DNA of 34,410 bases from a virus (taxonomy: Duplodnaviria; Heunggongvirae; Uroviricota; Caudoviricetes). Within the stretch, counting starts at the first letter, position 1. Each line of letters begins with the position of its first letter. The notes beneath the pieces were generated by a model, which did no database searches, was not told where the DNA came from, and saw only the letters and a list, made by a program, of their open reading frames with translations. The stretch spans positions 1-34,410 of the IMG/VR virus record IMGVR_UViG_2579778652_000012; one strand, 5' to 3'. This document shows positions 9,438 to 10,994 of this stretch, piece by piece. The translations under genes were made by a program, and so were the position numbers.

Positions 9438-9565
9438 TTAACCGATTCTACGAGTAGTCATTTGTTCATTGAGTAGGAATGTTGTTGTCTGGGGGGGTAA
9501 TCAGTGTAGGTGGAATGAGGAATATGATATGGTTATCACATAATCAGATTGTTTTGAGTAAAACA

Positions 9566-9592
9566 ACAAAACGCCCTTTAATGGGCGTTTTG
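9566..9592 (-). terminator. rho-independent terminator downstream of the secreted-protein operon
   Basis: Hairpin acgccc/gggcgt (9571-9576 with 9583-9588, loop tttaat) flanked by an A-run and a T-run; about 30 nt beyond the stop at 9624. Confidence 0.5.
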
Positions 9593-9623
9593 TTAAAACT
9601 TAAATTGACTATCCTTTCAAATA

Positions 9624-10403
9624 CTATTTTATTTCTATGTAATTTTTAAATTCCCTCTCATATTTATACATGATGTTATCAAATCCTTCCATTACATCAA
9701 CGAATTGTTGTGAACATTCCGGCTTCCAAGGCGTACACTTACGAACCATATCCATTTTATTCTTATCCTTCGTTGTATCGACTAAGGATAGGTACCCTAT
9801 AAAATTCATCATCTGAACAGGATCTTGATTTGTGAATATATATTTGACGTTTTGCTTAGTAGGTGAAAAAGAATCAAAAGCAGGGAACATATATTCACCA
9901 GAAAAAGAGAGTGCAGCATCAATGACGTCAGTTGCTGGAGTGCAGTTGCTCAGAATTGGCACTAACCTAAAATTAGCACCGGAGCACACTGCATATATAT
10001 CATCCCCTTTTTTTAGTTTTAACAGAGAGTTTTGTTTTGAATCCAACACTTTCAATTTGATATAATTTAGTGGCGTTGCATTTTCCCCTGGAGTAAATAA
10101 CTCTACAATTGGTTCATTATTCACCATTCTTATGGATTTTATTTCACCATATACAATTGAAATTGTATTCCATTTTTCCTGAGCAGCAAATTCATTATCT
10201 TTAAAATCATTAACCAACTCAGATGGAAAATGATAACCAAATTGATTATTCATTGTTTTCGAGGCAAATCCAGACAAATAGAATACCCTTACTAAATCAT
10301 AATCTTTTTTTGAAGTAGAAAGCCAATCTGGCAATTTATTATCAGCTATCGCGCTTCCAGCAAAAATAGCACAACAAAATGTTATTACATTCAATAATTT
10401 CAC
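9624..10403 (-). CDS. secreted/periplasmic protein (P1 Sim superimmunity-like position, tentative)
   Basis: 259-aa ORF with GTG start; N-terminal signal peptide KLLNVITFCCAIFAGSAIA-DNK; visibly AT-rich coding sequence. Confidence 0.5.
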   Translation of the reverse strand: MKLLNVITFCCAIFAGSAIADNKLPDWLSTSKKDYDLVRVFYLSGFASKTMNNQFGYHFPSELVNDFKDNEFAAQEKWNTISIVYGEIKSIRMVNNEPIVELFTPGENATPLNYIKLKVLDSKQNSLLKLKKGDDIYAVCSGANFRLVPILSNCTPATDVIDAALSFSGEYMFPAFDSFSPTKQNVKYIFTNQDPVQMMNFIGYLSLVDTTKDKNKMDMVRKCTPWKPECSQQFVDVMEGFDNIMYKYEREFKNYIEIK

Positions 10404-10410
10404 TTTTCAT

Positions 10411-10728
10411 TCACTCATTAATCGGTTTAAACTCACTAATTAATTCACCAAGACTATTTGGGTATGCTTTATAAATAACATACTCCGAAGAGCCATCTGA
10501 ATATTGGTAAACCCCATAACAGACCAGTTTATTTATTCCTTTCTGAATAGTTTTTTGATTATAAGAATCAACCACTGTTATTCCATATGACGATAATATT
10601 TCGTTATATTCTTCAATAAGAGCTTTTCTTGTTTCCACTGAATTACAATCTACCTTCGAAAAGTCAACTTCATCAGCAAAAACATTAAATGTTAAAAAGG
10701 AAAGCACTAAAAACAAACGAATCAGCAT
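10411..10728 (-). CDS. small secreted protein
   Basis: Track ORF is 10411..10746, but AGGAG lies 8 nt upstream of the internal ATG at 10728, giving MLIRLFLVLSFLTFNVFA-DEV with a signal peptide; AT-rich. Confidence 0.5.
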   Translation of the reverse strand: MLIRLFLVLSFLTFNVFADEVDFSKVDCNSVETRKALIEEYNEILSSYGITVVDSYNQKTIQKGINKLVCYGVYQYSDGSSEYVIYKAYPNSLGELISEFKPINE

Positions 10729-10749
10729 AAATCCACTCCTACGCATGGA

Positions 10750-10881
10750 TTAATAGTCATTGATCGCAAAGGCGTAAACTTGCCAAAGGTATTTCGTATA
10801 ATCGGTACAAATCTCCTTTACGCTTGATGCTGCATTAACAGTCCCAGCCATAAATAATAACGGTAGTAATAGTTTTCTCAT
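10750..10881 (-). CDS. small secreted peptide (43 aa), not in the ORF track
   Basis: ATG at 10881 preceded by GGTGAGG; translates MRKLLLPLLFMAGTVNAASSVKEICTDYTKYLWQVYAFAINDY, signal-peptide-like with a VNA-A cleavage motif; stop lies 3 nt before the next gene. Confidence 0.3.
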   Translation of the reverse strand: MRKLLLPLLFMAGTVNAASSVKEICTDYTKYLWQVYAFAINDY

Positions 10882-10977
10882 TATAACCTCACCTGCCTTA
10901 TAACTCATTTAGGGTACATATTTTCGCCTTTAAAAAAAAGAGGTTATTAGATCCAATTGTGCATTTATCAAACAAGC

Positions 10978-10994
10978 AATGCTCTAATAAATTT
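10978..10994 (+). promoter_or_regulatory. C1-repressor operator-like 17-mer upstream of c4-icd-ant
   Basis: AATGCTCTAATAAATTT, one mismatch to the P1 C1 operator consensus ATTGCTCTAATAAATTT (recalled); a weaker second copy follows at about 11008-11024. Confidence 0.5.

What the first reader, a model, noticed from the sequence alone, without database searches (positions are those of the whole stretch)
9450..10980. AT-rich island encoding three tandem signal-peptide proteins, including an unannotated 43-aa secreted peptide
Between the tail operon and the c4-icd-ant module lies a visibly AT-rich stretch with three consecutive minus-strand genes (259 aa, about 105 aa, 43 aa), each starting with a signal-peptide-like N-terminus, closed by a terminator. 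The 43-aa ORF (10750-10881) is below the ORF-track threshold but has a strong RBS. The position next to immI corresponds to the P1 sim (superimmunity) locus, whose product is a periplasmic exclusion protein, so this is probably a superinfection-exclusion cluster, possibly with diverged specificity.
Basis: partly seen in the sequence, partly recalled or inferred. Interest (0 to 1): 0.45.

Follow-up and report, generated by a model that had tools for sequence, protein, structure and literature searches.

The report
Phage P1 sim superinfection-exclusion operon
This AT-rich island is the already described sim (superimmunity) operon of a P1-like phage-plasmid, whose exported SimC protein blocks infection by related phages, and its 43-residue "secreted peptide" is the known gene simA, which looks like the leftover front end of a longer gene.

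Summary
Window 9543-10980 has 32-35% G+C against 47-49% in the flanks. It carries three tandem minus-strand ORFs with Sec-type signal peptides and ends in an intrinsic terminator.

This is the phage P1 sim locus itself, 97.5% identical in DNA to P1. P1's reference record annotates it as simC, simB and simA, so the 43-aa ORF is simA, listed there in a 52-aa form.
- SimB is identical to P1 SimB.
- SimA differs from P1 at 2 residues.
- SimC differs at 13 of 259 residues, with pN/pS about 0.27. Nothing indicates a changed specificity.

Further results:
- SimA matches only the first 41 residues of 179-215-aa periplasmic proteins (phrog_3933) found in the same slot in other P1-like elements. One distant relative carries long-SimA, SimB and SimC in that order. 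P1-type SimA is therefore most likely a 5' stub.
- SimB and SimC are the conserved pair.
- The simC of this window has private changes: an ATG to GTG start and an upstream TGG to TGA.

Verdict: already known, low interest.

The parts
9543..10980 (-). AT-rich sim island. It comprises the simB-simC module (about 9543-10740) and the simA stub with its promoter region (10741-10980).
   Evidence: G+C is 0.32 and 0.35 against 0.47-0.49 in the flanks. The island is 97.5% identical to the P1 sim region. The module limits come from the alignment with L024.
9564..9595 (-). Intrinsic terminator closing the sim operon (13-bp stem, 6-nt loop, T run).
   Evidence: Terminator scan and inverted repeat I5. It is retained with simC in L024.
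9624..10403 (-). simC: 259 aa with a GTG start in this window. Predicted 20-aa signal peptide (10344-10403), then a mature protein of 239 aa (about 27.6 kDa) with 4 Cys, a central OB domain and a C-terminal helical domain.
10407..10409 (-). TGA codon where P1 has TGG. It stops the 5-codon N-terminal extension (MSEWK) that the P1 record annotates for SimC, so simC must start at 10403.
   Evidence: The same stop is present in L013. GenBank M34382 and the plasmid gene tables also give the 259-aa form.
10411..10728 (-). simB: 105-aa form starting at Met7 of the 111-aa ORF. Predicted 18-aa signal peptide, then an 87-aa mature protein with 2 invariant Cys and a cystatin-like fold.
10741..10765 (-). 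Junction zone where homology to the long-SimA gene ends and the simB module begins. The simA stop (TAA, 10750-10752) aligns with a Glu codon (GAA) of the long gene. simA and the annotated 111-aa simB frame are the same reading frame.
   Evidence: DNA alignment with phage Ro157c2YLVW. Frames and upstream sequences.
10750..10881 (-). simA in its 43-aa form (the P1 record annotates 52 aa from 10908). Predicted 17-aa signal peptide plus 26 residues. Interpreted as the 5' stub of a 179-215-aa gene.
   Evidence: Annotated as simA in P1. It matches positions 1-41 of the 213-position phrog_3933. Identity over its length is 88% to the N-terminus of Ro157c2YLVW gp35 (215 aa), 57% to Cronobacter phage JK004 gene_14, and 64% to the L026 179-aa protein. 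The strong ribosome-binding site is at Met10 only.
10946..10972 (-). PsimA, the predicted sigma-70 promoter of the operon. It is placed by homology to the P1 annotation and differs from P1 at 4 bases.
   Evidence: My own consensus scan did not find it.
10978..10994 (+). C1 repressor operator Oc4 (Op51), identical to P1. It lies 5 bp from PsimA and marks the boundary with the conserved immI backbone.
   Evidence: Homology to P7, SJ46, RCS47 and others begins at window 10980.
9445..9463 (-). Late promoter LPsit of the downstream tail operon, identical to P1. It marks the left boundary of the conserved backbone.
   Evidence: Backbone homology with L024 resumes at about 9465.

Best explanation
The island is the sim (superimmunity) operon simA-simB-simC of a P1-like phage-plasmid.

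Proposed mechanism. The operon is transcribed leftwards from a promoter next to the C1 operator Oc4 and ends at the terminator at 9564-9595. SimC is made as a precursor and exported through the Sec pathway. Its 20-residue signal peptide is removed after AIA, and the mature protein of about 27.6 kDa sits in the periplasm. There it stops P1-type phages after adsorption, most likely by interfering with passage of the DNA or the injection machinery across the envelope.

Shown here: the identity of the locus, its anatomy, its synteny and its conservation.
Taken from the literature: the exclusion phenotype, the post-adsorption block and the processing of Sim.
Inferred here:
- SimC consists of N-terminal helices, an OB-fold domain (residues about 60-156) of the type seen in secreted 'nucleic acid-binding lipoproteins', and a helical C-terminal domain.
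- SimB, a small disulfide-containing periplasmic protein with a cystatin-like fold, is SimC's conserved partner.
- SimA is not a dedicated peptide. It is the 5' stub of a 179-215-aa periplasmic-protein gene. It keeps that gene's promoter, ribosome-binding site and signal peptide, and now mainly serves as the transcription and translation entry point for simB and simC.
For: Identity and synteny:
- 97.5% nucleotide identity over the whole island to P1, where it is annotated simC/simB/simA.
- Protein identities to P1 are 95%, 100% and 96%.
- The flanks are the same as in P1: pmgC and LPsit on one side; Oc4, C4 RNA, icd and ant on the other.

Literature:
- sim causes superinfection exclusion and its product is processed (Kliem & Dreiseikelmann 1989 and Maillou & Dreiseikelmann 1990, as cited).
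- The block comes after adsorption and its mechanism is unknown.
- simA, simB and simC are non-essential.
- sim is a low-G+C variable region of P1-like plasmids.

Signal peptides.

SimA as a stub:
- The PHROG match covers only positions 1-41 of 213.
- Full-length homologues occupy the same slot in Ro157c2YLVW and JK004.
- L026 has long-SimA, SimB and SimC, in that order, between immI and pmgC.
- L024 has simB-simC without any stub in front of it.
- The simA stop codon aligns with a Glu codon of the long gene.
- The Gly-His pair is conserved in all five long forms. It is replaced by Trp-Gln or Gly-Gln in 9 of 17 intact stubs.

Folds.
Against: - No experiment was done on this allele.
- The simC of this window has a GTG start and has lost the upstream GGA. 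None of 20 related loci shares these changes, so expression may be reduced.
- The SimC model has only moderate confidence: pLDDT 69, from an 8-sequence alignment.
- The Pfam OB match is below the gathering score: 19.1 against 23.5 bits.
- The SimA stub is intact in 17 of 18 loci, and its segregating-site ratio of 0.54 does not differ from either constraint or neutrality. A residual function cannot be excluded.
- I could not read the primary papers on Sim. From memory only: the phenotype was described with multicopy clones.
Confidence: 0.9

Rival explanations
1. SimA is a functional small secreted peptide (26 residues after cleavage, one Cys) that works with SimB and SimC as an accessory exclusion factor, as the P1 annotation 'putative superimmunity accessory function' suggests.
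For: The ORF has a strong ribosome-binding site and an intact signal peptide. It is intact in 17 of 18 related loci. It is retained in the 136 plasmids that carry the island.
Against: It is homologous only to the first 41 residues of 179-215-aa proteins. Its stop codon replaces a sense codon of that gene. simB-simC occur without it in L024. Residues conserved in the long family vary among the stubs. All sim loci sampled are at least 96% identical, so intactness carries little weight.
Confidence: 0.2
2. The island is a sim variant with altered exclusion specificity, so it excludes a different set of P1-like phages than P1 Sim does.
For: SimC differs from P1 SimC at 13 of 259 residues. About 9 of these define a second allele group shared with other plasmids. 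The slot is a known variable region.
Against: pN/pS is 0.18-0.37, which is overall purifying selection. SimB is identical to P1 SimB. 95% identity is ordinary allelic variation. No target of Sim is known against which specificity could be judged.
Confidence: 0.1
3. The simC of this window is functionally weakened and the island is decaying. The ATG to GTG start and the loss of the upstream GGA lower SimC synthesis.
For: Both changes lie within 7 nt of each other at the initiation site and are private to this window among 21 loci. Disrupted simA, simB and simC copies exist elsewhere: L009, L013, P0003 and P0004.
Against: GTG is a normal bacterial start codon. The ORF is otherwise intact with only three further private substitutions. 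Translational coupling to simB, whose stop lies 7 nt upstream, could maintain expression.
Confidence: 0.15

Closest known systems
Phage P1 sim operon (simC/simB/simA; P1_gp041-043, GenBank M34382 and NC_005856)
   Same: Same locus, position, gene order, terminator, promoter region and flanks. DNA identity is 97.5%. SimB is identical, SimA 96% and SimC 95% identical.
   Different: The window carries the second common SimC allele: V44, F59, S86, E101, V119, N125, R146, N243 and R250 on the 259-aa numbering. It adds private changes: a GTG start, F4L, A50T and L258I. SimA has Trp-Gln instead of Gly-His. The 5-codon SimC extension annotated in P1 is closed by a stop codon.
Long-SimA family (phrog_3933; Ro157c2YLVW gp35, Cronobacter phage JK004 gene_14, the 'simA domain protein' of plasmid CP012494)
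   Same: Same promoter region, ribosome-binding site, signal peptide and first 41 residues. DNA identity to Ro157c2YLVW is 94%. Same slot between immI and pmgC.
   Different: Those proteins are 163-215 aa long, whereas the window ORF stops after 43 aa. In those elements the partner gene is a 158-aa YfjT-family protein or another gene, not simB-simC. The exception is L026, where long-SimA precedes SimB and SimC.
Secreted OB-fold proteins of the tRNA_anti-like type (Pfam PF12869; PDB 3f1z, Klebsiella 'putative nucleic acid-binding lipoprotein')
   Different: The sequence match is below Pfam's threshold. SimC has no lipobox and a signal-peptidase-I type site. It carries extra N-terminal helices and a helical C-terminal domain of about 100 residues.
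Other envelope-located superinfection-exclusion proteins (T4 Imm/Sp, P22 SieA, HK97 gp15, Streptococcus phage TP-J34 Ltp).
   Same: They are encoded by the phage, act after adsorption and block DNA entry. They sit in the membrane or periplasm, and they are non-essential genes.
   Different: No sequence similarity was detected. One viral fold hit is named 'Host cell surface-exposed lipoprotein' (E 1e-4, poor rmsd), which is not enough to claim kinship. The Sim target is unknown.

Membership tests
Phage P1 sim operon | Orthologous DNA at the same genomic position, between the pmgC/LPsit tail operon and the Oc4/c4/icd/ant immI module | tested here: met
   97.5% identity over 1695 nt to P1 46563-48256. 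The flanking features map one to one. Rfam finds C4 RNA at 11175-11260.
Phage P1 sim operon | SimC (Sim) protein of about 259 aa | tested here: met
   95% identity over the full length. phrog_14355, E 1e-178.
Phage P1 sim operon | Sim is made as a precursor with a cleavable signal peptide | tested here: inconclusive
   My heuristic finds a hydrophobic core and AIA|DN at residue 20. Processing of P1 Sim is reported in the literature (title cited). There was no SignalP run and no experiment on this allele.
Phage P1 sim operon | Confers post-adsorption exclusion of P1-type phages | not testable with these tools
   Known for P1 Sim. It needs plating assays with the cloned window allele.
Pfam PF12869 (tRNA_anti-like OB fold) | Sequence score at or above the gathering threshold | tested here: not met
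   19.1 bits against a cut-off of 23.5; E 0.001; residues 62-154.
Pfam PF12869 (tRNA_anti-like OB fold) | OB beta-barrel superposable on the family's solved structure, 3f1z | tested here: met
Long-SimA family (phrog_3933) | Full-length protein of about 180-215 aa covering the whole profile | tested here: not met
   SimA covers only profile positions 1-41 of 213, whereas Ro157c2YLVW gp35 covers positions 1-213.
Cystatin-like fold (SimB) | A helix packed on a 4-5 stranded antiparallel sheet | tested here: inconclusive

The most novel reading that the evidence does not exclude
The original sim system had three periplasmic components: long-SimA, SimB and SimC, as still seen in L026. In the P1 lineage the first gene was cut down to a 43-codon stub that survives only as the expression entry point.

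Under this reading, SimC uses a periplasmic OB-fold domain to bind the incoming DNA or the tip of the injection machinery, and SimB acts as a cystatin-like binding partner. The slot between immI and the tail operon is a hot spot where alternative two- or three-gene cassettes of exported proteins replace one another as alternative exclusion modules. The cassettes seen are sim, long-SimA with a YfjT-like gene, and the P7 lipoprotein with DUF5384.
Probability: 0.35. Interest if true: 0.4.

Novelty: already known. Interest (0 to 1): 0.15.

Why it matters
The finding itself re-identifies a locus described in the 1980s and annotated in the P1 genome, so it adds little.

Three by-products may help people who annotate or engineer P1-like phage-plasmids:
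- Better gene starts. They are simC 259 aa, simB 105 aa and simA 43 aa, in place of the 264, 111 and 52 aa given in the P1 record.
- Evidence that simA is a remnant of a longer gene, and that simB-simC is the conserved functional pair.
- A first fold assignment for SimC (a periplasmic OB domain) and for SimB (cystatin-like).

The fold assignments give testable ideas for the still unknown mechanism by which Sim blocks P1 infection after adsorption.

Tried and rejected
- Flanking repeats or att-like sites that could explain how the cassette moves: nothing beyond the terminator hairpin and chance-level short repeats.
- Sequence search of SimC against solved structures: no hit even at E 10.
- NCBIfam: no family for SimA, SimB, SimC or long-SimA.
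- Pfam: only sub-threshold hits.
- Word-indexed protein search with the 43-aa SimA: it returned only three short stubs and missed the long homologues that tblastn and PHROGs found. This is a sensitivity limit, not absence.
- Test for diversifying selection in SimC: pN/pS is 0.18-0.37, so there is no sign of it. simA and simB have too few substitutions to say anything.
- Consensus promoter scan: it did not recover P1's predicted PsimA, and the number of hits was below the shuffled expectation. Promoter placement therefore rests on homology to the P1 annotation only.
- Primary papers (Lobocka 2004; Maillou & Dreiseikelmann 1990): not held in the library. What they show is cited through other papers or marked as my own knowledge.

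Full report
**1. What is in the sequence**

Between about 9450 and 10950 the G+C content of 300-nt windows drops to 0.29-0.36, from 0.44-0.52 on both sides. Measured by module, 9543-10740 has 0.32 and 10741-10980 has 0.35. The flanks have 0.47 and 0.49, and the whole window has 0.46.

Three minus-strand ORFs fill the island:
- 9624-10403: 259 aa, GTG start.
- 10411-10746: 111 aa.
- 10750-10908: 52 aa.

The last two have internal starts with much better ribosome-binding sites. Met7 of the middle ORF (10728) follows AGGAG and gives 105 aa. The upstream ATGs at 10746 and 10908 have no such site.

All three products begin with a positively charged n-region, a hydrophobic core and an AXA-type site: AIA|DNKLP, VFA|DEVDF and VNA|ASSVK. 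This is my own heuristic, not SignalP.

A 13-bp hairpin with a T run at 9595->9564 closes the operon.

**2. What it is**

Megablast places window 9400-11094 on phage P1 (NC_005856 46563-48256) at 97.5% identity over its full length. It also matches the 1990 GenBank entry 'P1 sim region' (M34382) at 96.5%.

In the P1 record the three ORFs are simC ('superimmunity'), simB and simA ('putative superimmunity accessory function'). The neighbours are the same as in the window. To the left are pmgC, the tail tube gene and the late promoter LPsit. To the right are the C1 operator Oc4, the c4 promoters, C4 RNA, icd and ant1/2. These P1 features map onto the window base for base:
- LPsit at 9445-9463
- Oc4 at 10978-10994
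- c4 at 11181-11257

Rfam independently finds C4 RNA at 11175-11260 and its a1b1 target at 11055-11107. The first 25 kb of the window are 96.7% identical to P1 over 90% of their length. The window therefore comes from a P1-like phage-plasmid (Punavirus).

Compared with P1, SimB is identical, SimA differs at two residues, and SimC differs at 13 of 259.

**3. What is known about it**

- sim confers 'superimmunity', that is superinfection exclusion, and its product is processed. This rests on Devlin et al. 1982, Kliem & Dreiseikelmann 1989 and Maillou & Dreiseikelmann 1990, as cited.
- A later paper summarises the block as coming after adsorption, by an unknown mechanism.
- A CRISPRi screen scored simA, simB and simC as non-essential.
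- A comparison of 77 P1-like phage-plasmids lists simC-simB-simA as one of eight variable, low-G+C regions.

I could not obtain the primary papers. From memory only: the precursor loses a 20-residue leader in a SecA-dependent way, and the phenotype was described with multicopy clones.

**4. Distribution and variation**

In PLSDB, 136 plasmids hold at least 80% of the island, while 578 match some part of it, mostly the flanks.

I aligned 18 full sim loci: the window, P1 and 16 IMG/VR contigs. They are 97.1-98.7% identical to the window.
- simC is intact in all 18. simA has one frameshift (L009) and simB has one (L013).
- SimC falls into two allele groups that differ at about nine residues. The window belongs to the non-P1 group.
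- pN/pS for simC is 0.18-0.37, which is purifying selection. simA and simB have too few changes to judge.

There is therefore no evidence for a changed specificity.

The SimC family is tiny. A search of 5.8 billion proteins returned 4 clusters. A full HMMER scan of 1.84 billion representatives returned 14, of which only three are full-length relatives, at 82%, 39% and 27% identity. SimB is similarly restricted.

**5. SimA is a stub**

Against PHROGs, the small ORF matches only positions 1-41 of the 213-position family phrog_3933. tblastn finds its first 41 residues at the N-terminus of longer genes:
- 88% identity to a 215-aa gene (gp35) of Punavirus vB_EcoM-Ro157c2YLVW.
- 57% identity to a 189-aa gene of Cronobacter phage JK004.

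In Ro157c2YLVW the gene lies in the same slot, between icd and pmgC. JK004 carries the same two-gene cassette. In both phages the gene is followed by a 158-aa signal-peptide protein; its homologue in L024 is recorded with Pfam YfjT.

At the DNA level the window and Ro157c2YLVW are 94% identical from the c4 side, through the promoter and ribosome-binding site, into the coding sequence. Homology ends at '...TCCATGCG'. The simA stop TAA (10750-10752) aligns with a GAA Glu codon of the long gene. Downstream of the stop, the same frame runs straight into the annotated 111-aa simB. The 'MRRSGF' extension of the annotated SimB is thus partly left-over long-SimA sequence.

Two further loci settle the direction of the change:
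- L026 is a 96-kb contig of a distant P1-like element. It has long-SimA (179 aa), SimB-like (108 aa, 61% identity) and SimC-like (264 aa, 39% identity), in that order, between the ant/icd module and pmgC.
- L024 has a 107-aa membrane protein, SimB, SimC (82% identity), a full-length long-SimA, a YfjT-like gene and then pmgC. Here simB-simC occur with no stub in front of them.

The Gly-His pair at positions 33-34 is conserved in all five long forms. It is replaced by Trp-Gln or Gly-Gln in 9 of the 17 intact stubs.

The simplest reading has three parts. The long form is ancestral. P1-type simA is its 5' remnant, keeping the promoter, ribosome-binding site and signal peptide. simB-simC is the conserved functional pair. 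A residual role for the 26-residue product cannot be excluded.

**6. The slot holds other cassettes**

P7 carries a lipoprotein gene (upf50.5) and a DUF5384 gene (upf50.0) in this slot, both annotated with signal peptides. In PLSDB, 81 plasmids carry the long-SimA/YfjT-like cassette. Plasmid CP012494 has a 163-aa 'simA domain protein' followed by other genes.

Every alternative seen here begins with genes for exported envelope proteins. This fits the idea of a hot spot for exclusion or other surface functions, but it is an inference.

**7. Gene starts**

The P1 record gives SimC 264 aa, starting at MSEWK. In the window, and in L013, the Trp codon of that extension is TGA, so translation must begin at the next start, 10403. 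M34382 and the plasmid gene tables also give 259 aa for simC, and the plasmid tables give 105 aa for simB.

The window is the only one of 21 loci with GTG rather than ATG at the simC start. It also has private F4L, A50T and L258I substitutions. The two changes at the initiation site might lower SimC synthesis; this is untested.

**8. Predicted folds**

*SimC.* The AlphaFold2 model comes from an 8-sequence alignment. It has mean pLDDT 69 and pTM 0.56, with about 80 in residues 60-156. It shows N-terminal helices, a beta-barrel and a helical C-terminal domain.
- This agrees with the sub-threshold Pfam hit to PF12869, tRNA_anti-like (19.1 bits against 23.5).
- Among predicted viral structures, the top hits are phage proteins named 'tRNA_anti-like' or 'nucleic acid-binding lipoprotein'.

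*SimB.* The model has pLDDT 84 overall and above 90 in the mature part. It is a helix packed on a four-stranded sheet.
- The mature region and both Cys residues are strongly conserved between the P1 type and the L026 type.

These folds suggest binding proteins in the periplasm. They do not reveal the target.

**9. Verdict**

The locus is the already known P1 sim operon in an ordinary allelic form, and the '43-aa secreted peptide' is simA.

The useful extras are the evidence that simA is a stub, the corrected gene starts and the fold assignments. Interest is low, and the novelty class is 'already known'.

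Noticed in passing
window 10401-10409 (minus strand): The simC of this window starts with GTG where P1 and 20 other sim loci have ATG. Two codons upstream, TGA replaces TGG, which also removes the GGA of the weak ribosome-binding site. Both changes are private to this window and might lower SimC synthesis.
   Followed up: partly
window 10728-10752 (minus strand): simA and the 111-aa simB annotated in P1 are in the same reading frame, separated only by TAA-TCC. Without that stop codon the stub would read through into SimB. 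The first residues of the 'MRRSGF' extension of the annotated SimB align with the long-SimA gene.
   Followed up: yes
L024 1-3734 (Logan SRR14689322 contig): A P1-like element carries both cassettes in tandem in the immI-pmgC slot: a 107-aa membrane protein, SimB, SimC (82% identical), full-length long-SimA (215 aa), a YfjT-family protein (158 aa), then pmgC.
   Followed up: partly
L026 4059-5795 (GCA_005690115.1, AADOKG010000015.1): A distant P1-like element has a three-gene operon of long-SimA (179 aa), SimB-like (61% identity) and SimC-like (39% identity) in the same slot. A YhaV/PrlF toxin-antitoxin pair lies nearby, beyond the ant/pRha genes.
   Followed up: partly
L025 2153-3217 (phage P7): P7 fills the same slot with two other exported proteins: a lipoprotein (upf50.5, mislabelled 'DNA methyltransferase' in RefSeq) and a DUF5384 protein (upf50.0).
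   Followed up: no
L022 3001-3648 (Ro157c2YLVW gp35, long-SimA): Long-SimA has a borderline Pfam hit to PTPlike_phytase (26.6 bits against a cut-off of 27; residues 24-109) and a short match to phrog_2533. Its function is unknown.
   Followed up: no
L009 (simA) and L013 (simB), IMG/VR contigs; proteins P0003 and P0004: Single-base frameshifts occur in simA (L009) and simB (L013). Truncated or chimeric SimC proteins (P0003, P0004) exist in public data. These are either decay or sequencing errors.
   Followed up: no
window 10946-10994: The predicted sim promoter PsimA lies 5 bp from the C1 operator Oc4, which controls the divergent c4 promoter, so C1 might also influence sim transcription. PsimA differs from P1 at 4 of 27 bases.
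   Followed up: no
window 1-1437 and 24153-25000: These stretches fall outside the megablast match of window 1-25000 to phage P1. They are probably other variable regions of the phage-plasmid. The part of the window beyond 25000 was not compared.
   Followed up: no
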